Source: a virus
Taxonomy: Duplodnaviria; Caudoviricetes
Reading direction: 5' to 3' (one strand)
Length of the DNA stretch: 42,089 nt
IMG/VR virus record: IMGVR_UViG_3300048574_000397
Location: 1 to 42,089 of that record
The stretch's first letter is position 1. The number at the start of each line of letters is the position of its first letter. Of the stretch, positions 1 through 42,089 are shown piece by piece. The notes beneath the pieces were generated by a model that did no database searches, was not told the DNA's origin, and was given only the letters and a program-made list of their open reading frames with translations. The position numbers were made by a program, and so were the translations under genes.

Positions 1-774
1 TCAGGCGCCGAGGGCGTGACGCATCTTGTCGAGGGCGCGCTGCCGAATCTTGTAGACGCTGCTCCGGTGCAGGGACAGCCGGCGGGCGATCTCGGCGTCG
101 GGGAGCGGCTCGTCGTCGTCCGTGTCGAACCCGTAGGCCAGGCCGACAACGGAGCGCTCGACGCCGTCGACTGCGTGAAACGCCTTACGCACGAGGTCGC
201 GCTCCTCGGAAGAGAGGCGCTCGCGGCGGGAGTACGGCGAGCGGGCGCCGGCCTCCCAAGCGCCGTGCTCGACGTTGTCGGCGAGGCGCTCGACGGAGTC
301 GACGGCGCTGGCCTCGCGGATGGCGCGGAAGACCTCACGACTCATGTGGTACAGCGGGGCGACCTGCTCGGCCTCGTCGAGGTTGCCGTCGGCCTCGGAG
401 ACGATGGACAGGTAGCGGCGCCACGTGGCGTTCGGGACCTTGATGCCGGCACGGATGGCCTGGGCCTCGTCGATGAGCGCGCGACGGACCTCGTCGCCGA
501 CGCGGGAGGACAGCCGGCCGACGCTCGGGTCGCTGACGGCGTTCCAGAGCCCGACGAGGACGGTCTGCCGGAGGTTGTCCTCGTCGCGGAGAGTGGGGCG
601 GAAGGCGGCGGCCAGGCGGCGCAGCATTGGGGCGTAAGCCTGAGCGATGCGGCCGAAGGCATCGGCGTCGCCGTCACGCGCCGCGGTGAGGAGTCGGGCC
701 TCCTCGTCGCGGGTCAGCGTGGCAACGGTGGGGGAGTAGTGGAACAGGCGGTCGAGGTTGCGGGTGGTGAACAT
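1..774 (-). CDS. Sigma-70-like RNA polymerase sigma factor / DNA-binding protein
   Basis: Region 1.2/2-like LTRDEEARLLTAARDGDADAFGRIAQAYAPML and region 4 HTH LPDAEIARRLSLHRSSVYKIRQRALDKMR. ATG at 774 follows GAGGAG. Confidence 0.85.
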   Translation of the reverse strand: MFTTRNLDRLFHYSPTVATLTRDEEARLLTAARDGDADAFGRIAQAYAPMLRRLAAAFRPTLRDEDNLRQTVLVGLWNAVSDPSVGRLSSRVGDEVRRALIDEAQAIRAGIKVPNATWRRYLSIVSEADGNLDEAEQVAPLYHMSREVFRAIREASAVDSVERLADNVEHGAWEAGARSPYSRRERLSSEERDLVRKAFHAVDGVERSVVGLAYGFDTDDDEPLPDAEIARRLSLHRSSVYKIRQRALDKMRHALGA

Positions 775-899
775 CGTGCGATCTCCTCTGTGCGTAAGAC
801 GTCGCACGCGGCGACGTCGCCGGGTCCGCGGGTGAAGTTCCGCGGCATCGGTATCAGGGTCGCTCCGTGCGACCTCTTACGCAAGAGGACACGCGCACG

Positions 900-5737: not shown

Positions 5738-6220
5738 TCACTCGGGTCTACTCAGATGGGTCGTCGGTGCGGCGTCTGGGCTTGTCGGCCACGGGGCGCG
5801 GGAGTCTTCCTGCGTCCGTGCTCGGTGCTGTTCCGCGACTGTCGGATCAAGCGCCGCTAGGAGAGATTCCGCACGCCGCAGACGGAGCAGGAGACGCGCC
5901 CACGTCGCCAGGGTCGTCACGGCGTATGCCGAGCCGACCGGGCGGCGGGCTCGCTTGACGACGACGACGCCGTAGTCCTCGCCGGCGGTGACACGTTGCT
6001 CCTCGGCCCCATCGAGGCCGATGCGGATGGCGTCTTCCCAGGAACGCCAGTCTTTCGCCTGCACGATGAAGGGCGAGACACCGTGAATGTCGCCGGAGTC
6101 GCGCGCGCCAGTCGGGGCGGCGCGGTGCGGGTCGAGGCCGTACTGCCTGCCGAAGGCGGCTGACAGAGCGGTAACGACCTCGCGCTCCCAGCGGGTGCCC
6201 TTGGCCTTTTCGGCGGTCAT
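5738..6220 (-). CDS. Holliday junction resolvase (PD-(D/E)XK type)
   Basis: KAKGTRWEREV...DSGDIHG...IVQAK motif; position upstream of the primase. Confidence 0.8.
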   Translation of the reverse strand: MTAEKAKGTRWEREVVTALSAAFGRQYGLDPHRAAPTGARDSGDIHGVSPFIVQAKDWRSWEDAIRIGLDGAEEQRVTAGEDYGVVVVKRARRPVGSAYAVTTLATWARLLLRLRRAESLLAALDPTVAEQHRARTQEDSRAPWPTSPDAAPTTHLSRPE

Positions 6221-6690: not shown

Positions 6691-7416
6691 TCAGAACGGA
6701 GGCTCGTCGGACGAGCCGCGCGGCTTGGCCGCGACGCCGGCCGCAAGGCCCTTGAGGCGGAGCGTCGGCTTCGTGTAGGACACCGTCTGGCCGGCGCGAG
6801 GGCCGCCCTTGGCGATGAACGACACGGGCTCAAGCGCGAGGGTCGCCTTGACCGGGCCGTCGGCGTCGATGAGGTCGGCCTCGACGTTGTTGTAGTCGAG
6901 GTCGCTGGCGAACGACCAGGACGACGACCGGAACTCGAAGACGCCGAGGTCGGGGTCGTCGGCGAGGCGGACGTCGACTCGGATGTCGGGCACGGGGCCG
7001 ATGCCCTGGCGGGCGCGTTCCTTGCGCTCGGCGAGGGTGAGGCTCGCGTCAGGGTCCGGGCTGCCGTCGTCCTTCGTCACGCCGTCGGTGCGGTAGATCG
7101 GCTTGCCGTTGCGGCCCCAGAGCACGAGGGACTCGTGCAGGGCCTCCGGGCCGTCGAGGATCACGTCGAGCGACGGGGCGTTCGTGAAGACTTCGAGGTT
7201 GTCCTCGCCGGTCGCTTCCCACTCCTGCGGGTCGCCGCCGTAGTGCGAGGCGATGAAGGCGGCGACGTCGGGGTCACCCGTGGTGACGCGCCACTCGGTA
7301 AGGGCGGCGGGTCGGCCGCCGATCTGATAGCCGGAGCGCAGGCGCCCGACGATGTCGTCGGCGAACGGCCGACGAGCGGGGGCGTCCTCGTGCTCAGGGA
7401 AGATGCGCAGGCCCAA
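6691..7416 (-). CDS. Recombination directionality factor (phiC31 gp3-like)
   Basis: DIVGRLRSGYQ...WRVTTGDP..A...RLADDPDLGVFEFRSSSW...YTKP pattern, position downstream of a Cas4-like exonuclease, and a serine integrase in the same genome. Confidence 0.75.
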   Translation of the reverse strand: MGLRIFPEHEDAPARRPFADDIVGRLRSGYQIGGRPAALTEWRVTTGDPDVAAFIASHYGGDPQEWEATGEDNLEVFTNAPSLDVILDGPEALHESLVLWGRNGKPIYRTDGVTKDDGSPDPDASLTLAERKERARQGIGPVPDIRVDVRLADDPDLGVFEFRSSSWSFASDLDYNNVEADLIDADGPVKATLALEPVSFIAKGGPRAGQTVSYTKPTLRLKGLAAGVAAKPRGSSDEPPF

Positions 7417-7501: not shown

Positions 7502-7909
7502 TCAGCGGCGAGGCAGGACGAGCGCCGTCGAGGGCGCCGGCGGGATGCCGGGCGGGGCGCCGATGCGGGGGCCGGGCATGGAGGCCGACCGGCGCTTGCC
7601 GAGCGCGGCGTGTCCGAGGACGGTGGCGATCTTGCCGGAGCGTCGGGAGCCCATGTGCGGCAGGAGGTCGAGCATGATCTCCGCGGCGCGGGCGCCGCTT
7701 ACCTCGGTGTGCCAGGTGGCTTGTGCCGGCGCACCGTGCAGAGAGAGGCGGACCTGCGTGCCCATGATCGTCGCGGCGCGACCGATGGTGTCTCGGTCGG
7801 TCATGCCGATACGGATACGCGGGTAGCGCCCGCGGTGCAGGTCGAAGGTCGCCTCGCCCTCACAGAGGCCGGCGAGCCACAACAGGTCGTCGTGGTCGCC
7901 GTAGATCAC
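7502..7909 (-). CDS. Single-motif LAGLIDADG endonuclease-like protein
   Basis: WLAGLCEGEATF motif followed by PRIRIGMTD. GTG at 7909 overlaps the upstream TGA (GTGA). Confidence 0.75.
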   Translation of the reverse strand: MIYGDHDDLLWLAGLCEGEATFDLHRGRYPRIRIGMTDRDTIGRAATIMGTQVRLSLHGAPAQATWHTEVSGARAAEIMLDLLPHMGSRRSGKIATVLGHAALGKRRSASMPGPRIGAPPGIPPAPSTALVLPRR

Positions 7910-8724
7910 GCCGCGCGTCCCTTCCGGGGCGCCGGGGTGCGGCGGGATGGGCTCGGCCCACGGAGGCCGCCGACGGGGTCGCCGATGACGGTGGCCTTGC
8001 GCTCGCGGTCGTAGTCGAAGACCTTGCGGAGGGCGAGGAAGTCGTCGAAGACCTCGTCGTCGATCCGCACCGGGTAGACGCCCCACTCCTCAGGGCGAAT
8101 CCACACGCACGCGCCGGCCTCGGCGTGAGGCAGCGGGACGCGCGTCCCGTCCGGCCGGAGGATGTAGTCGGCGTGGGAGTAGGCCGCGAGTTGGAGGGCG
8201 ACCTCCTCGTGTACGCCGGAGCGCGTGGTCTTGTAGTCGATCCATGTGAGGTCGCCGTCGATGATGGCAAGGGCGTCGAACGAGCCGGCGTAGTCGTGTG
8301 TCTCCGACCAAACCGTCTCCTCCATGAAGAGGTACTCGGGAGAGAACTCGTCGATGAACTCGCCGAAGTGACGGACGAAGGGCTCGACGTCCGGCGGGAT
8401 GCGGCCGGCCGGCTCGCCCTTGGCGAGGCGCTCGAAGATGTCGTGAGCCGCGCCGCCGACGGTGGCGGCCCGGTAGGTATCGCGGTCGGGCGCCCGCTTG
8501 AGATGGTCGATGGCGGCCTCTCGGTCGCGGAGCGTCATCGTGACGATGGTGCCCAACTCGTCGACTGCGGTGGTGGCGACTTCCTTGGCTGCCCAATAAC
8601 GGAGGAACGGCTTGGGGAGCATGTCGAGAATGGACGTCACTCCGGGGGCCTTGGTGCCCGTCTCGGGGTTGACGTAAAAGCGCGATCCGCCACGCTTGAT
8701 CGTGCTTACCTTCGGGGTCGTCAA
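7906..8724 (-). CDS. Cas4-like / PD-(D/E)XK exonuclease
   Basis: PGVTSIL...G..AH...E...YAGSFD...IDYKT...QLAAY. TTG start after GAGGAGG. Confidence 0.85.
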   Translation of the reverse strand: MTTPKVSTIKRGGSRFYVNPETGTKAPGVTSILDMLPKPFLRYWAAKEVATTAVDELGTIVTMTLRDREAAIDHLKRAPDRDTYRAATVGGAAHDIFERLAKGEPAGRIPPDVEPFVRHFGEFIDEFSPEYLFMEETVWSETHDYAGSFDALAIIDGDLTWIDYKTTRSGVHEEVALQLAAYSHADYILRPDGTRVPLPHAEAGACVWIRPEEWGVYPVRIDDEVFDDFLALRKVFDYDRERKATVIGDPVGGLRGPSPSRRTPAPRKGRAA

Positions 8725-12005: not shown

Positions 12006-13043
12006 TCACCCGCGCCAGGCGCCGTTCCAGTAGACGAAGATGCGGGCGTCGTGCCAGGCGCCGTTCCAGTAGACCTTGACGATTCCTTGGTGCCAGGCGT
12101 TGACCCAATAGACCAGGATCGAGGAGAGGGTGGTAAAGGAAGAGGTCGCCGACCAGGCGCCGGCGCCAATGGCATTCTTGGCTCGGACACGGACGTAGTA
12201 GGTCGTCGAGGGCGTGAGGCCAGTGAGCGTGCCGGACGAGAACGTCTGGACATTGGCGGTGAAGCCGGTGTTTGTGGCGATCTGGACGTCATAGCCCGTG
12301 ATGGACGAGCCGCCATTGTTCGGGGCGCTGTAGGCGACGAGCGCCGACACGGCAAGAATGTTCGAGATGCTTGTGATGCTCGGAGCATCCGGGGCCGTGG
12401 CCGCGGTAGTGAACGAGCCCATTCCCGCCCAGCCCGACCAGCCGGCAGCATTGTGTGCACGTGCCGTGTAGTAATAGGTCGTGTGCCGGGTCAGACCCGA
12501 AGCCGTGCCCGTGCCGCCGGCCCACGACGCGACGACGTTGCCGCCGCTGCCAGGCCACGCATTGTTGGTCAGGACGTAGGCTTCGTAGGCGTCGATTCCG
12601 GCGCCGCCGTTGTAGCCGGGCGCCGAGACGACGATGCGGGCGCTGCTCGACGTGATCGAATCGACGCCCGTGCCGGGCGGATTCGGAACGACGGGCGGGA
12701 CGGTGTAGGTCGCAGAAACGGAGGACGCCGCGCCGCCGCCGCTACCGTCGGCCAGACCGGAGACGGAGGCGGAAATCCCGTAGGAGCCGCCGGGCGTCAC
12801 GCCAAAGGTGCCGCTCCCGACAGCCACCGTCTCGGCGCCGGACGAGGAGTAGTTGTGGTTGTTCGCGCTGCCGGCCGAGCCGCCAACATTCCACGAGCAG
12901 GCGTTCGTGGAGTCGTAGAGGGAAACGTTGTGGACGACGTAAACCGTGTAGGAGCCGGTAGAGCCATTGTCGCCGACGTCGACCCTAATGTAATACTGCC
13001 CGGCAGAGCCGTAGGAGACGGCATTTCCGGTGTACGTTGCCAC
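12006..13043 (-). CDS. Minor tail protein with two fibronectin type III domains
   Basis: P.NGG..I.GY...GLT..TTYY...RA.NA.G...WS occurs twice. Confidence 0.8.
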   Translation of the reverse strand: MATYTGNAVSYGSAGQYYIRVDVGDNGSTGSYTVYVVHNVSLYDSTNACSWNVGGSAGSANNHNYSSSGAETVAVGSGTFGVTPGGSYGISASVSGLADGSGGGAASSVSATYTVPPVVPNPPGTGVDSITSSSARIVVSAPGYNGGAGIDAYEAYVLTNNAWPGSGGNVVASWAGGTGTASGLTRHTTYYYTARAHNAAGWSGWAGMGSFTTAATAPDAPSITSISNILAVSALVAYSAPNNGGSSITGYDVQIATNTGFTANVQTFSSGTLTGLTPSTTYYVRVRAKNAIGAGAWSATSSFTTLSSILVYWVNAWHQGIVKVYWNGAWHDARIFVYWNGAWRG

Positions 13044-13049
13044 GTCGGG

Positions 13050-13769
13050 TCAGAGCACCTTGACCCAGAGGTCGCCTTGCGTGGCGGTGCCGCTCGGGTC
13101 GGTCGTCGCCGTGGTGATCGTGCGGCCGTCGAGGGTCGACGTCGTCGGCTTGCCGGTGAGGGTCGCCCACGTCACGGGCGCCGGGATGAGGTTGGCCCAG
13201 CCGGTAGGCGTGTAGAACTCCCATGCCTGGCTGGTCCGGTTGTAGCCCAGCGTGCGGAACGGGATGGGCGGCGTCGGGTTGCTCGCGCCGCCGGGACGGG
13301 TCGCGGTCGTCCAGTTGCCGACGTTGCCGCCGAGGAGGACGCGCTCGTCGGTGATGTCTGCGGAGGCCAGGCTTGCGGCGCCAGCGGCCACGGCGATCTG
13401 CGCGAGGGGCATCTCGAAGATGCCGGTGTCGGTCTGGGTGAGCGCCGGCGGAGTGGTCGACGTGCCCGTCAGGACTTCGAGGGTGACGGTGTTGGCCGAC
13501 GGGTTGACGCGGACGACGATGCGGTCGACGCGCGCCGAGGAGCCCGCCGGCGTGAGGGTCAGCGTCGCGGCGCTCGGGTTGTCGAGGACGAAGCCTCGGA
13601 CGAGCGCGCGGCCGACGGCCACGGTGACGGCGAGGCCGGTGCCGGGCGAGACGGCGAGCGAGGAACCGTCGGTGTAGGTGACGCCGGGGTCCAGCATCTC
13701 CCGCATGAGATAGGAATACTGAGACTCGGTCGTGTCAGCATTCTCAAACGGCCAAGAGGTCGTGGGCAA
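13050..13769 (-). CDS. Minor tail protein
   Basis: SWPF...V..GRALVRG...RVDRIVVR...P.LTQ......EMPLA pattern. TTG start after GGAGGAGG. Confidence 0.8.
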   Translation of the reverse strand: MPTTSWPFENADTTESQYSYLMREMLDPGVTYTDGSSLAVSPGTGLAVTVAVGRALVRGFVLDNPSAATLTLTPAGSSARVDRIVVRVNPSANTVTLEVLTGTSTTPPALTQTDTGIFEMPLAQIAVAAGAASLASADITDERVLLGGNVGNWTTATRPGGASNPTPPIPFRTLGYNRTSQAWEFYTPTGWANLIPAPVTWATLTGKPTTSTLDGRTITTATTDPSGTATQGDLWVKVL

Positions 13770-13839
13770 TGTGGGCCTCCTCCGAGGTCAGGAAATGAGG
13801 GCGCCGGGGAAGCGTGGGCGCCGCCTCGCGCGCGGAAAA

Positions 13840-13865
13840 TCGCCGAGATGCCCGCGCACTCGCAC
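13840..13865 (+). repeat. Shufflon crossover repeat C (26 bp, inverted relative to A and B)
   Basis: TCGCCGAGATGCCCGCGCACTCGCAC on the plus strand; identical to the minus-strand copies at 14318-14343 and 14536-14561. Confidence 0.92.
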
Positions 13866-14153
13866 ACCACTCCGTCGCACACTCACACGGTGACTGATCC
13901 GGGCCATCAGCACCCGATTGTTCACGCCGCTACCGGCATCACCATGGCCGTGATCCAAGACGGTGTAAACGATGGAACGGTGTCGAACCGCTGGCACCTT
14001 GCGGACGGTGTGGCGGGCCTCGTCACACAATCGGGCACTACCGGGATCACGATCCCCTCGTCCGGCGGCGGTACATCTGGCAGCGCGGGAAGCGGTGGCG
14101 CGCACGGCAACATGCCGCCATTCATGACCCTCACCTACCTCATTCGGTTGTGA
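13842..14153 (+). other. Silent alternative tail-fibre C-terminal cassette 3 (103 aa, inverted)
   Basis: AEMPAHSHTTPSHTHTVTDPGHQH...GSGGAHGNMPPFMTLTYLIRL*; same boundaries as the C-terminus of 14353..16068. Confidence 0.88.
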
Positions 14154-14177
14154 CCGCGTCACAACCGAATGAGGTAG
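14135..14177. repeat. Perfect 20-bp inverted repeat joining the convergent ends of cassettes 2 and 3
   Basis: CTACCTCATTCGGTTGTGAC-CGC-GTCACAACCGAATGAGGTAG. Confidence 0.9.
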
Positions 14178-14341
14178 TTGACCGTGGTGAACGGCTGCAA
14201 GTTGTTGTGGGCGCTGCCCCCGCCGGTAGACGTGACCGACGAGTTGTTCGCGTTGCCGATGACGTAGTTGCCCGGCACATTCGCAACCGTCGAGATAGAG
14301 CCGCCGAGTTGTTGAGTGTGCGAGTGCGCGGGCATCTCGGC
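14159..14341 (-). other. Silent alternative tail-fibre C-terminal cassette 2 (60 aa)
   Basis: Manual translation: AEMPAHSHTQQLGGSISTVANVPGNYVIGNANNSSVTSTGGGSAHNNLQPFTTVNYLIRL*. Confidence 0.88.
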
Positions 14342-14343
14342 GA
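14318..14343 (-). repeat. Shufflon crossover repeat B (26 bp)
   Basis: Plus strand GTGCGAGTGCGCGGGCATCTCGGCGA. Confidence 0.92.
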
Positions 14344-14352
14344 AAGGCTCGC

Positions 14353-16068
14353 TCAGAGCCGGATGACGTAGTTCACGGTCATGAACGGCGGCAGGTTGAC
14401 GTGCGCCGATCCGCCTCCGGCCGACGAGATGCTGCCAAGGGCCACGTTCGTCGCATTGATCGGACCATCGGAGCCTGTGAAATCGTCACCATTGGCGGCC
14501 GTGTCGGAGTGCGCACCGACATTCGCATGCAGTACGTGCGAGTGCGCGGGCATCTCGGCGACCGTGAGGGTATGTGTCTCCTCGCCCCCGGTCGATCCGA
14601 GCGCATGATTTGTGTGACCCGCGGCGCCGGAGTCGCCGACTCCCAGCGGGACGCGGCCCTTGAGGTTCGGCAGGTTAAAGGTCGTGCTGCCGTTGCCGGC
14701 GCCATAGGTTGTGCCAATGACGCCGAAGAGAGCCGAGTAGGTTGTGCGAGAGATGGCGGAGCCGTCGCAAATGGCCCATCCGGGCGGGGCAGCGGCGCCG
14801 GCGTACATCCGAATCTCGCCGGGAAAGCCTGCGTAGAGCGGGGTGCCGACCTGCGCGCCAGGGAGCGTGCCAGTGATGGCGGCGGCGTCGATGGTCGTGG
14901 GCTGCTCTGCGTTGCGTTCGAGCGCGGAGAGGCGGCTCTCGGCCTGGGTGACGCGGTTGTTGAGGCTCGACGATGCGGAGGTCGTGGCGATGTCGCCGAA
15001 GACTGCGCCGACCTTGATGCCGTCGGAGTTGGCGACGATGGTGGCGGCCGAGACGGTCGTCGTGTCCTCGTCGCCGTCGACCACGAGGGCGACGAGGTCG
15101 CCGACGTTCCAGTCGAGGGCGTAGCGCATCGTCAGGTCGTCCGAGGCAACTGCCGATGCCGAGAGGACGCCGGCGGCGTCGGCGAGGGCCTTGTCGCCGG
15201 CCTGCTGCAACTCGACCGCGTCGTCGGTCTGGCGCTGGTCGACGAACGTCTCGATGCGACCCCAGGCGCCGTAGTCCGTCTCGGCCTCGGTCGCCTCGAC
15301 CGTCGTGCGCTCGACGAAGGTGCGCAACTCGCCCTCGCCTTGGCCGGCGACGATGGCGCGAGTCACGGCGGGAGCGGTGCGGGTCGTCGAGGTTGACGAG
15401 AGGGTGCCGTTGTGGAGGTCGAAGCGGACCTCGCCACGGCGGTCGGCGATGGACAAGACCTCGAAGAGGAGCGTGTCGTCCGACTGCGCCAGGCGGAAGC
15501 GGAGCCCGGAGACGGTGGCGATCTCCGCGAGGAGGTTGCCGAGGACATCGAAGCGGGCCGACTTCGAGACGTTGCCGCCGCGGGCCAGGTCCGGGGCGAG
15601 GGTGAGGGCGTTTACACGCCGAACGGCGGGCGCCGAGGCGCCGAGGTTGGCGTCCACGTAGGCCCGCATGACCGTCTCGGCGGCGCCGCTGCGGACGTCG
15701 TAGGCCGCGGTCTGGGCTGTGACGTCGGCGGTCGTCGGGGTCGGGTAGGCCAGCCGGTTCCAGAGGATGACGTCGTCGGTCGTGCCGGTGAACGTCACGA
15801 TGCCGGTGGGGTCGGTGAGGTCGGCGTCGACCTTCGGGGCGCTCACAGGGCCGGAGAACAGGACGCCGCCGGGGCCGGTGACGATGATGCCGGCGCCCGG
15901 TGCGAGCAGGTAGCCGACGGCGTCGTCCTCGACGGGCAGGCGCAAGGTCCACTCGCCGGGGGCGCAGTCGCGGATGGTGGCTCGGATGTCGAGCCGCTCG
16001 GGGACGATCTGGGCAACGCGGATGAGGTCGCGGTTGCGGACCTCGACGAGCAGGTCTGTCGCCTGCAC
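14353..16068 (-). CDS. Minor tail protein (Gp37-like baseplate hub domain) fused to a tail-collar domain and variable tip; likely receptor-binding protein
   Basis: N-terminal ...IVAGQGEG..R...E.FVDQR...Y..DWNVGDLV; collar domain PGEIRMYAG...P.GWAICDG...SRTTYSALF.VIGTTYG.G.GSTTFNLPNLKGR; tip AEMPAHSH...PPFMTVNYVIRL. Confidence 0.88.
   Translation of the reverse strand: MQATDLLVEVRNRDLIRVAQIVPERLDIRATIRDCAPGEWTLRLPVEDDAVGYLLAPGAGIIVTGPGGVLFSGPVSAPKVDADLTDPTGIVTFTGTTDDVILWNRLAYPTPTTADVTAQTAAYDVRSGAAETVMRAYVDANLGASAPAVRRVNALTLAPDLARGGNVSKSARFDVLGNLLAEIATVSGLRFRLAQSDDTLLFEVLSIADRRGEVRFDLHNGTLSSTSTTRTAPAVTRAIVAGQGEGELRTFVERTTVEATEAETDYGAWGRIETFVDQRQTDDAVELQQAGDKALADAAGVLSASAVASDDLTMRYALDWNVGDLVALVVDGDEDTTTVSAATIVANSDGIKVGAVFGDIATTSASSSLNNRVTQAESRLSALERNAEQPTTIDAAAITGTLPGAQVGTPLYAGFPGEIRMYAGAAAPPGWAICDGSAISRTTYSALFGVIGTTYGAGNGSTTFNLPNLKGRVPLGVGDSGAAGHTNHALGSTGGEETHTLTVAEMPAHSHVLHANVGAHSDTAANGDDFTGSDGPINATNVALGSISSAGGGSAHVNLPPFMTVNYVIRL
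14536..14561 (-). repeat. Shufflon crossover repeat A (26 bp, inside the expressed gene)
   Basis: Plus strand GTGCGAGTGCGCGGGCATCTCGGCGA; encodes AEMPAHSH in frame. Confidence 0.92.
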
Positions 16069-40544: not shown

Positions 40545-42089
40545 TCAGGCGGTGGGCTGGCCGACCCAATCGAGATGCACACGGCCGGGGTCGAAGTGGG
40601 CGCCTGAGTAGGGGGCGGGGTCGACTTCGACTCGCGTAATGGCGAGGCGCAGGAGCCCGCGGGCCTCGGGGATGGGGGCGGCCATGATGGCGGGGAGCGA
40701 GATGTCCGGGTCGAGGAGCGGGCCGAGGTCGACCTCCGGCTTCGGCAGGTCGGCCAGACGCGCGAGCAGACCGTCGATGCGCTGGCGCAGACCCGCCGTC
40801 ACCCGGTCGTGGCGGTCGGCGTCGAGCGTGCCGCGCACGTAGTAGTCGTCGTCGGCCTGGGTCATCCGAGCGCGAGCGTCGGCGAGGTCGGCCGTGAGGT
40901 CGGCACGTTCCTTGAGAGGGGCTGGGTCGTGGCGGACGAGCCATCGCTCGGCGACGGCCGCAAGGATCGGCGAGTCAGGCTCAAGCGCGGCCAGGCCATA
41001 GGCCCAGCGCCGACGGACCTCGTCGTCGATGGTCTTGATTCGCACACTGAGCGGGCGCGCGCAGCCGTCGCCGACCTCGTGCCAGCGCCGGCAGCGGTAG
41101 GAGTCGCCGAACGAGTTGGCATGCCGCTTGCACGTCGCGCAGTAGATGAGGCCGCCGAGGAGGCTCTGAGGTTGGCGAACGGGGCGCATGCCTCGACCGT
41201 AGCGACGGAGGCGGCCGTCGAGAACGTCGAGGAGTCGGAGACGTTCGGACTCGGTCACGATGGGCTCGGCGCCGTCGGCCATGATTGAGACTGTCTCGCC
41301 CGTCTCCGGGTCGCGCCACGCCTCCGTGCGCGTCGACCAGCCGCCGTCCGTGTCATCGCGGCGCTTGCTCGGCATGAGGCCGACGAGGGCGGGGGACCGG
41401 ACGATCATCGAGAGAGTCGACGAGCGCCAGACCGGGCCGCCGCGACGGGTCGGGATGCCGCGCTCGTTCCAGTCGCGGGCGACGGCGAGGAGCGTGTCGC
41501 CGGCGAGGAGGCGGTCCACTAGTTCGCGGACGAGTGGCGCCTCGGTCGGGTCTTGGTGGAGTTTGCGGTCCTCGTCGACCGTGTAACCCATCGGGGCCGA
41601 GCCGCCGAGGTAGCGGCCTCGGCTGCGGTCCTTTTCCTTGCGGTCGCGGACGCGAAGCGACGTGTTCGCCGACTCGGTGCGGGCCTGCTCGGAGACGAGC
41701 ACGATGACCATTCGGTGACCGGGGACGGACGAGTCGAGCGAGTCCATGAGGAAGTACAGGCGGCCGTGCGCGGCCTCGACAGCGTCGAGGAGTAGGCCGA
41801 CCTGCCCGGCGCCGTGGCGGCTGAGACGGTCGAGTTTCCAGACGGCGAGGGTGCCGACCTCGCCGGAGGTCACGGCGGCGACGGCCTGCTCGAAGTCCTT
41901 GCGGTAGACGTCGCGGTAGGCGCTCTTGCCGGGGTCGCGCCACACGCGGCGGACGGTCAGGCCCTCACGCGCCGCCCAGGCGCGGAGGTCCGTCTCCTGC
42001 CGTTCGAGCGAGTCCTTGCCCTCTTGGTCGATGCTGAGGCGAAGGTAGAGGTCGACGAGGTTGGCGACGGGCGTCTCGGGGCGAGCCAC
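40545..42089 (-). CDS. int: Large serine recombinase (integrase)
   Basis: Catalytic YLRLS, SLERQ, KLDRLSR, GGSAPMGY recombinase domain, zinc ribbon CATC...YRC...C, coiled coil. Confidence 0.95.
   Translation of the reverse strand: MARPETPVANLVDLYLRLSIDQEGKDSLERQETDLRAWAAREGLTVRRVWRDPGKSAYRDVYRKDFEQAVAAVTSGEVGTLAVWKLDRLSRHGAGQVGLLLDAVEAAHGRLYFLMDSLDSSVPGHRMVIVLVSEQARTESANTSLRVRDRKEKDRSRGRYLGGSAPMGYTVDEDRKLHQDPTEAPLVRELVDRLLAGDTLLAVARDWNERGIPTRRGGPVWRSSTLSMIVRSPALVGLMPSKRRDDTDGGWSTRTEAWRDPETGETVSIMADGAEPIVTESERLRLLDVLDGRLRRYGRGMRPVRQPQSLLGGLIYCATCKRHANSFGDSYRCRRWHEVGDGCARPLSVRIKTIDDEVRRRWAYGLAALEPDSPILAAVAERWLVRHDPAPLKERADLTADLADARARMTQADDDYYVRGTLDADRHDRVTAGLRQRIDGLLARLADLPKPEVDLGPLLDPDISLPAIMAAPIPEARGLLRLAITRVEVDPAPYSGAHFDPGRVHLDWVGQPTA

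What the first reader, a model, noticed from the sequence alone, without database searches (positions are those of the whole stretch)
13840..14561. Three-cassette tail-fibre shufflon that can swap the receptor-binding tip
Seen in sequence: an identical 26-bp repeat TCGCCGAGATGCCCGCGCACTCGCAC occurs three times. Copy A (14536-14561, minus) is in frame inside the collar-domain tail gene, copy B is at 14318-14343 (minus) and copy C at 13840-13865 (plus). Each copy heads an open, in-register cassette that begins AEMPAHSH and ends in G.AH.N..PF.T..Y.IRL*. The middles are unrelated (68, 60 and 103 aa). Inference: an A x C inversion (about 720 bp) fuses cassette 3 to the 503-aa constant part, and B x C followed by A x C brings in cassette 2. 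This would give 571, 606 or 563-aa proteins while leaving the RBS of the downstream gene (13769) outside the flipped segment. Established: Mu Gin, P1 Cin and p15B Min systems switch host range this way, and hix/gix sites are 26 bp. I do not know of such a system in phiC31-like actinophages.
Basis: partly seen in the sequence, partly recalled or inferred. Interest (0 to 1): 0.93.

Follow-up and report, generated by a model that had tools for sequence, protein, structure and literature searches.

The report
Phage tail-tip shufflon lacking an invertase
A soil-type actinobacterial prophage keeps two spare, intact tips for its central tail protein between identical 26-base repeats, so DNA flips would swap the likely host-binding tip. 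Unlike the known switches of this design it encodes no flipping enzyme of its own, and no flip has been seen.

Summary
There are three exact 26-bp repeats, three open in-register tips (68, 60, 103 aa), and predicted products of 571, 563 and 606 aa. The layout is that of the Rin and Min tail shufflons. Spare tip B is 63-74% identical to tips of intact proteins elsewhere, so it is no decayed relic.

- The protein is the central baseplate hub carrying a collar and needle, not a side fibre.
- The repeat has no hix/gix-like symmetry.
- The phage is closest to Arthrobacter cluster AZ.
- Actinophage shufflons, including an invertase-less one, are published (PMC6109161).
- This prophage encodes no invertase, only a large serine integrase.

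Best reading: a usable switch driven by an outside recombinase (0.4). Rivals: homology-driven swapping (0.27) or a frozen orphan (0.25). No reads were listed, so inversion is untested.

Five other phages carry cassette arrays of the same tip family. Three have an adjacent tyrosine recombinase. Two have none, and their crossover sites mimic the host dif site, pointing to host XerCD. The window's own repeat matches only the XerC half of dif.

The scan had noted Rin/Min-type switches on other DNA; none matched this sequence.

The parts
14353..16068 (-). Tail-tip gene as assembled (571 aa): baseplate hub (Sipho_Gp37, res 8-359), helical linker, collar (417-474), needle tip A. Constant part = 14560-16068 (503 codons)
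   Evidence: Pfam; model; fold matches to Douge and Bxb1 tail-tip hubs
14536..14561 (-). Repeat A, in frame inside the gene (expression-site crossover, inferred)
14353..14559 (-). Cassette A, the currently fused tip, 68 aa
14318..14343 (-). Repeat B, direct copy 9 bp after the stop of cassette A; shares 28 bp with C
14159..14341 (-). Cassette B, silent tip, 60 aa, GC3 0.87; 63-74% identical to tips of four intact proteins
14135..14177 (.). Perfect 20-bp inverted repeat joining the stop codons of B and C (hairpin z about -8 to -10); no U-tract terminator match
13842..14153 (+). Cassette C, silent inverted tip, 103 aa, three HxH motifs; about 40% identical to tips of five longer proteins, four of them with a collar domain
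13840..13865 (+). Repeat C, inverted relative to A and B
13770..13839 (-). 70-bp spacer with the purine-rich RBS of the next tail gene; the place where related arrays carry their recombinase gene
   Evidence: sequence; comparison with L210, L606, L629
13050..13769 (-). Next minor tail/virion gene, outside the invertible segment
   Evidence: PHROGs
40545..42089 (-). Large serine integrase, the only site-specific recombinase found in the prophage
6691..7416 (-). Gp3-like recombination directionality factor (this family is a ssDNA-binding protein in phage TG1)
   Evidence: PMC11795197 passages
7906..8724 (-). PD-(D/E)XK exonuclease (possible helper for homology-driven exchange)
5738..6220 (-). 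RusA-like Holliday junction resolvase

Best explanation
This is a three-tip cassette array at the end of the phage's central tail-tip gene, bounded by three identical 26-bp repeats and with no invertase gene in the prophage; it likely still flips, probably using a recombinase supplied by the host or another element, and would thereby swap the predicted receptor-binding needle. Shown: the sites, frames, product lengths, absence of a detectable invertase, and preservation of the spare tips. Predicted: the collar and tip form a homotrimer in which the conserved last strand of each cassette folds back onto the constant collar, so every cassette must keep the same head and tail while the middle forms the distal tip. 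Inferred: A x C inversion expresses C. B is reached in two steps (B x C then A x C, or A x C then A x inverted B). B and C always stay tail to tail, and the downstream genes keep their orientation. Inferred: a site-specific enzyme rather than general recombination, because A x B are direct repeats whose recombination would delete tip A. Host-range switching is inferred by analogy with T4 gp37 and Rin.
For: Three exact repeats, 0 by chance. Identical codons, p about 3e-4, against a synonymously diverged 3' block. Spare frames are open, with in-frame GC3 0.87 and 0.76 against 0.47-0.60 in the other plus-sense frames, and codon adaptation 0.59 and 0.42 against 0.47 for the expressed tip. B matches intact tips at 63-74% including the middle. 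The layout equals that of Rin, where inversions were seen in reads, and the same paper reports an invertase-less tail inversion (PMC6109161 passages). Three closest syntenic relatives have 25-35 nt where the window has 583, so the array is an insertion; five others have 256-1814 nt with no tip cassette detected. The same tip family forms cassette arrays in five other phages: L210, L606 and L629 with an adjacent tyrosine recombinase, and G552 and G453 prophages without one but with dif-like sites. In L629 the shared site lies at the same codon position as here. Trimer model: score 0.92 against best control 0.00, runs agree in at least 85% of contacts, pLDDT at least 82; the mark was reached by 21 of 30 solved pairs and 0 of 23 single chains; a like complex is solved (8kec, 1ocy), so the pass may be from likeness. 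In T4 gp37 the needle is an insertion into a collar fold and its tip binds receptors (PMC6957217 passages).
Against: No inversion is observed: no second orientation is on record in any relative, and no close relative was found (best homologue 60%). The driving enzyme is unidentified. The site has no dyad (5 pairs; 92% of random 26-mers reach this) and is not a full dif mimic (ranks 1506 and 3769 of 84,124 positions). It is longer and more perfect than the 8-17 bp cores of Rin and of the other five arrays, which fits homology-driven exchange better. The host genome is not held, so a trans-acting enzyme or further copies of the site cannot be looked for. The record is about 95% complete, so a gene at the prophage edge could be missing. 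Receptor binding by this tip is untested, and the phage has other tail genes (FN3 protein 12006-13043) that may set host range.
Confidence: 0.4

Rival explanations
1. Homology-driven switch: the 26-28 bp perfect repeats are substrates for general recombination (host RecA or the phage's exonuclease, ssDNA-binding protein and RusA), giving rare inversions, occasional deletion of A, or gene conversion from silent cassettes.
For: No invertase. Repeats are perfect, long and without dyad. Heads of tips of different origin are homogenised. Exonuclease, Gp3-like SSB and RusA are present. The 3' ends are also partly homologous (76% over 72 nt).
Against: Direct repeats A and B would delete tip A as readily as A x C inverts, eroding the array. 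26 bp is near the lower limit for RecA-type recombination (recalled, not from a call). No RecT/Erf/Sak annealase was found in the ORFs scanned. All five other arrays of this tip family look site-specific.
Confidence: 0.27
2. Orphaned shufflon: a Rin-like module was acquired with a tyrosine invertase beyond cassette C, the invertase was lost, and the array is now frozen with tip A.
For: In L210, L606 and L629, and in Rin, the recombinase gene sits directly beyond the outermost cassette; here that place is a 70-bp spacer. The array was found in no syntenic relative.
Against: No remnant of a recombinase. Repeats show no mutation and both spare frames are intact with phage-like codon use, so any loss must be recent.
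Confidence: 0.25
3. The phage's own large serine integrase, with its directionality factor, flips the segment as a side activity.
For: It is the only site-specific recombinase in the prophage.
Against: Such integrases act on 40-50 bp dissimilar attP/attB sites (abstracts). The repeats are identical, 26 bp and lack dyad. The att sites lie outside the record, so no direct comparison was possible.
Confidence: 0.04
4. Assembly artefact that concatenates tips of co-occurring phage variants, or a fold-back chimera at the B/C hairpin.
For: Metagenome-derived provirus on one contig; no reads could be laid.
Against: Unique 9-, 5- and 70-bp spacers. The hairpin arms diverge after 20 bp into two different open frames. 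Variant tips would give alternative paths, not a tandem plus inverted array. The same layout recurs in five unrelated phages.
Confidence: 0.04

Closest known systems
Rin shufflon of Bifidobacterium prophages (PMC6109161, passages read) and Eggerthella lenta prophages (PMC8778435, passages read)
   Same: Actinobacterial prophage; constant N-terminus plus silent variable C-termini; one site inside the gene, a direct copy right after its end, inverted copies beyond; asymmetric sites.
   Different: Rin has an adjacent tyrosine invertase, 8-11 bp sites and TP901-1-like or H-lectin tips. Here there is no invertase, the site is a perfect 26-28 bp repeat, and the target is a baseplate hub with a collar-and-needle tip.
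Invertase-less inversion in Bifidobacterium prophages 689b-1 / Bb423phi2 (PMC6109161, passage read)
   Same: Tail-region 3' end swapped by inversion with no flanking recombinase; trans supply proposed.
   Different: Two states, 8-bp site, gene of unknown function, and both orientations seen. Here three tips, 26 bp, and only one orientation on record.
Gin (Mu), Cin (P1), Min (p15B) (as described in PMC6109161; site details recalled)
   Same: Swap of a tail-protein C-terminus by inversion; Min has multiple cassettes; site length 26 bp.
   Different: They need an adjacent small serine invertase and dyad-symmetric sites; neither is present here.
BV01-like phage tail-fibre shufflon (PMC13596623, passages read)
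   Same: Three cassettes at the distal end of a tail gene.
   Different: Bacteroidota host, flanking recombinase, 10-bp motifs, activity shown by reads.
T4 gp37 / gp12 and cyanophage A-1(L) long tail fibre (PMC6957217 passages; PDB 8kec, 1ocy)
   Same: Collar fold with a histidine-coordinated needle inserted into it and a returning C-terminal strand.
   Different: Here the module is fused to the central hub of a siphophage and is cassette-encoded.

Membership tests
Gin/Cin/Min serine-invertase systems | Small serine invertase next to the segment | tested here: not met
   Only PF00239 match in the prophage is the N-terminus of the 514-aa integrase, 26 kb away
Gin/Cin/Min serine-invertase systems | 26-bp dyad-symmetric crossover site (feature recalled) | tested here: not met
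   Length fits, best dyad is 5 pairs, reached by 92% of 2000 random 26-mers
Gin/Cin/Min serine-invertase systems | Constant plus variable tail-gene segments fused in frame at the site | tested here: met
Rin shufflon | Adjacent armless tyrosine invertase | tested here: not met
   No PF00589 match at E<=1 in six frames (control rings in 14 of 14 genomes); no tblastn hit with four related recombinases
Rin shufflon | Site inside the gene, direct site after its end, inverted site(s) beyond, silent C-terminal cassettes | tested here: met
   against the description
Rin shufflon | Alternative orientations in reads or relatives | not testable with these tools
   No run was listed; no close relative
XerCD/dif-type site | XerC arm, 6-bp centre, XerD arm | tested here: not met
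   Window repeats rank 1506 and 3769 of 84,124 with a matrix from 33 host sites. XerC arm alone is in the top 45-231 positions, XerD arm unmatched. The XerC-arm likeness overlaps the Ala-Glu-Met codons.
Large serine integrase att sites | Similarity of the repeat to attP/attB/attL/attR | not testable with these tools
   Record ends at the sigma-like gene stop and the integrase start; host flanks not held
Receptor-binding needle (T4 gp37-like) | Trimeric collar with HxH needle insertion and returning C-terminal strand | tested here: met
   Collar by Pfam, HxH in all tips, homotrimer model with residues 558-569 packing on collar residues 469-477 (prediction only)
Receptor-binding needle (T4 gp37-like) | Binding to a host receptor | not testable with these tools
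   analogy only

The most novel reading that the evidence does not exclude
Collar-and-needle tail tips are shuffled by a widespread class of cassette arrays, and in actinobacterial prophages this class has dropped its own invertase and borrows host housekeeping recombinases. In two prophages found here the sites mimic dif and point to XerCD; in the window a host enzyme would act on a site that keeps only a XerC-like half. Phage host-range switching would then be tied to the host's chromosome-segregation machinery.
Probability: 0.25. Interest if true: 0.8.

Novelty: new variant of a known kind. Interest (0 to 1): 0.5.

Why it matters
If active, it extends tail-tip phase variation to AZ-like soil actinophages and to the central hub protein, and gives a case in which the switching enzyme is not phage-encoded, which has been proposed once (PMC6109161) but not shown. 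It offers three natural tips on one scaffold for finding receptors in Gram-positive actinobacteria. Scans that look for shufflons by their invertase would miss such loci. The side finding, dif-mimic sites in two other prophages, is directly testable and more novel than the window locus itself.

Tried and rejected
Reads: the look-up of sequencing runs listed none; this is no evidence either way.

Relatives: the 24-nt core of the repeat gave 0 matches in viral contigs. Of 206 loci around hub homologues, 17 had a tip, all single. Of 434 sequences (433 loci, partly redundant, plus the window), 153 had a tip and 27 had several; all but the window and one gut phage (L210, also as L337 and L338) were full-length paralogues or one long frame with two tips. 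Pattern scans for tandem and convergent cassette junctions (115 and 15 loci) gave only L210.

Genome samples: 401 genomes of the order with the tip profile, 9 matched. Family samples: 23 of 301, 24 of 301, 0 of 5, 34 of 301 and 18 of 401. In some searches only the 30 loci cut out were examined. Most hits were the common three-gene collar clusters; arrays were found only in G552 and G453. tblastn of cassette B in GenBank phages gave no match. The short-protein search was dominated by full collar proteins.

Rejected: hix/gix likeness; full dif mimicry for the window; a sigma-70 promoter or U-tract terminator in 12900-15000 (0 found; weak test for actinobacteria); B as a stand-alone gene (gene callers list it as 58 aa, but it lacks the collar it folds on); a diversity-generating retroelement (no reverse transcriptase among the 42 and 60 ORFs scanned).

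Literature: ten searches. None of the listings showed a XerCD-driven phage tail inversion or a shufflon in AZ phages (0 occurrences of invert, inversion or shufflon in bioRxiv 10.1101/2025.05.26.655371). The library lacks most subscription papers, and no supplements were read; those of PMC9881135 may list similar loci.

Full report
Observation. The 26-bp repeat occurs exactly three times, at 13840 (+), 14318 (-) and 14536 (-), with no weaker copies and none in shuffles. Each copy heads an open frame that starts AEMPAHSH and ends in the conserved collar-protein tail, of 68, 60 and 103 residues. A lies in frame in the 571-aa gene 14353-16068, B starts 9 bp after A's stop, C faces B, and 70 bp separate C's repeat from the next gene. 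The identity is not explained by the shared peptide. The chance of the same codons in three copies is about 3e-4, the equally conserved 3' block is synonymously diverged, and 0 of 55 homologous tips carry this octapeptide. The last codons of B and C form a perfect 20-bp hairpin; I infer quasi-palindrome correction of two abutting homologous ends.

The host element. The window is a whole provirus record, about 95% complete, on a 77-kb metagenomic contig. Capsid and primase are 62-64% identical to those of Arthrobacter phages Elezi, Liebe, London and others, several of which are assigned to cluster AZ (abstracts). It encodes a large serine integrase, a Gp3-like directionality factor, an exonuclease and a RusA-like resolvase. 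It has no tyrosine recombinase and no small serine invertase.

The protein. Residues 8-359 are Sipho_Gp37 and fold like the baseplate hubs of mycobacteriophages Douge and Bxb1, so this is the central tail tip. A collar follows, related to the A-1(L) long tail fibre and T4 gp12. A three-copy model of residues 407-571 scored 0.92 against 0.00 for the best of three controls. Runs agreed in at least 85% of contacts, with pLDDT at least 82. The mark was reached by 21 of 30 solved pairs and 0 of 23 single chains, and likeness to solved fibres may explain the pass. In that model the last strand packs on the collar of a neighbouring chain, and the variable middle (about 517-542) makes no confident contact. 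In T4 gp37 the needle is likewise an insertion into a collar fold and its tip binds receptors (PMC6957217, passages). This explains why each cassette keeps head and tail and varies in the middle. Receptor binding here is inferred.

The spare tips are intact. In-frame GC3 is 0.87 for B and 0.76 for C, and codon adaptation is 0.59 and 0.42 against 0.47 for the expressed tip. B is 63-74% identical over its length to the tips of four intact proteins of 180-1057 aa. C is about 40% identical to tips of five longer proteins.

Relatives. No close relative exists in the collections searched (best homologue 60%). Among 206 loci around hub homologues, 17 have a tip, always single. Three syntenic relatives have 25-35 nt before the next gene where the window has 583; five others have longer gaps without tip cassettes. 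Searching by the tip rather than the hub found five unrelated phages with cassette arrays of the same tip family. L210 (3 sites), L606 (7 sites) and L629 (4 sites) have a tyrosine recombinase directly beyond the last cassette; in L629 the shared site sits at the same codon position as here. The prophages in G552 (5 sites) and G453 (3 sites), drawn from the order of a Microbacterium genome, have no recombinase beside the array; the nearest are tyrosine integrase-family genes about 3-4 kb away.

The dif lead. A dif-type core is present in 124 of 151 genomes of that order, mostly once, and agrees with the printed Frankia site (PMC3025954, passage). With a matrix from 33 such sites, the five G552 cassette boundaries rank 1-5 of 76,684 positions and the three G453 boundaries rank 1, 3 and 6 of 74,310, each set sharing one 6-bp centre that differs from the host's dif. 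Both hosts have one dif and a XerD over the family cut-off. The peptide these sites encode occurs in 0 of 163 collar homologues at that position, which argues for selection on the DNA. The matrix is biased towards the fixed core used to collect it. The window's repeat does not pass this test: ranks 1506 and 3769 of 84,124. Its first 11 bases resemble a XerC arm (top 45-231 positions), but these overlap the Ala-Glu-Met codons and there is no XerD arm.

Mechanism. A x C inversion (722 bp) would express C; B needs two inversions; products are 571, 563 and 606 aa. I put 0.40 on a site-specific enzyme in trans, because the array persists despite direct repeats, the spare tips are intact, and invertase-less arrays exist in related prophages. 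Homology-driven exchange gets 0.27, because the repeats are long, perfect and without dyad. A recently orphaned, frozen array gets 0.25, because the usual invertase position is a bare 70-bp spacer. The phage integrase and an assembly artefact get 0.04 each. No sequencing run was listed, so no orientation other than the assembled one has been seen.

Comparison with what is known. Rin in Bifidobacterium prophages has the same site layout and shown inversions, and the same paper reports an invertase-less tail inversion (PMC6109161, passages). Rin also occurs in Eggerthella (PMC8778435, passages). A collar-domain inversion target is known in a PilV fusion (PMC9881135, passages). The locus therefore works like Rin or Min but fails membership of both on the invertase. 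I also read passages of PMC2731167, PMC11795197, PMC13596623 and bioRxiv 10.1101/2025.05.26.655371 (no mention of inversion in AZ phages); other papers were seen as listings only, and no supplements were read.

Verdict. Real, well-formed, untested for activity; a new variant of a known kind. What remains of interest is the missing enzyme and the dif-mimic arrays found alongside. Interest 0.5.

Noticed in passing
G552:C1:484500-486420 (L454; L494:10093-12400); same prophage as L596: Five-tip collar-needle array whose five boundaries are the five best dif-matrix hits of the 38-kb region, with a shared 6-bp centre and no adjacent invertase: candidate XerCD-driven tail shufflon.
   Followed up: partly
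G453:C8:32030-32970 (L453, L495): Three-site array with dif-like boundaries (ranks 1, 3, 6). The expressed frame runs past the usual stop, so the current tip may be frameshifted. A 292-aa tyrosine recombinase lies 3 kb away.
   Followed up: partly
L606:3140-6002: Seven-site collar-tip shufflon with a 267-aa tyrosine recombinase directly adjacent (Rin-like).
   Followed up: partly
L629:3443-6151: Four-site Gp10_C tip array with a 337-aa tyrosine recombinase; shared site at the same codon position as in the window.
   Followed up: partly
L210:2547-6187: Gut phage tail gene with two inverted tip cassettes and a 298-aa tyrosine recombinase.
   Followed up: partly
window 14135-14177: Perfect 20-bp hairpin at the joined stops of B and C. 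It would sit at the gene end whenever B or C is expressed and lies upstream of further tail and lysis genes.
   Followed up: partly
window 12014-12074: 22-bp exact direct repeat in the C-terminus of the FN3 tail protein, encoding repeated VYWNGAW-type motifs.
   Followed up: no
window 1-807 and 40545-42089: The record ends at the sigma-like gene stop and the integrase start, so the attachment site probably lies between these genes, outside the record.
   Followed up: no
proteins P0275, P0329, P0366, P0392: 57-61 aa database proteins that begin at the same Met as cassette B: possible headless cassettes elsewhere, or contig-edge fragments; context not available.
   Followed up: no
G111:C37:493-962: Two identical dif-type cores in inverted orientation 450 bp apart: possible further invertible segment.
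   Followed up: no
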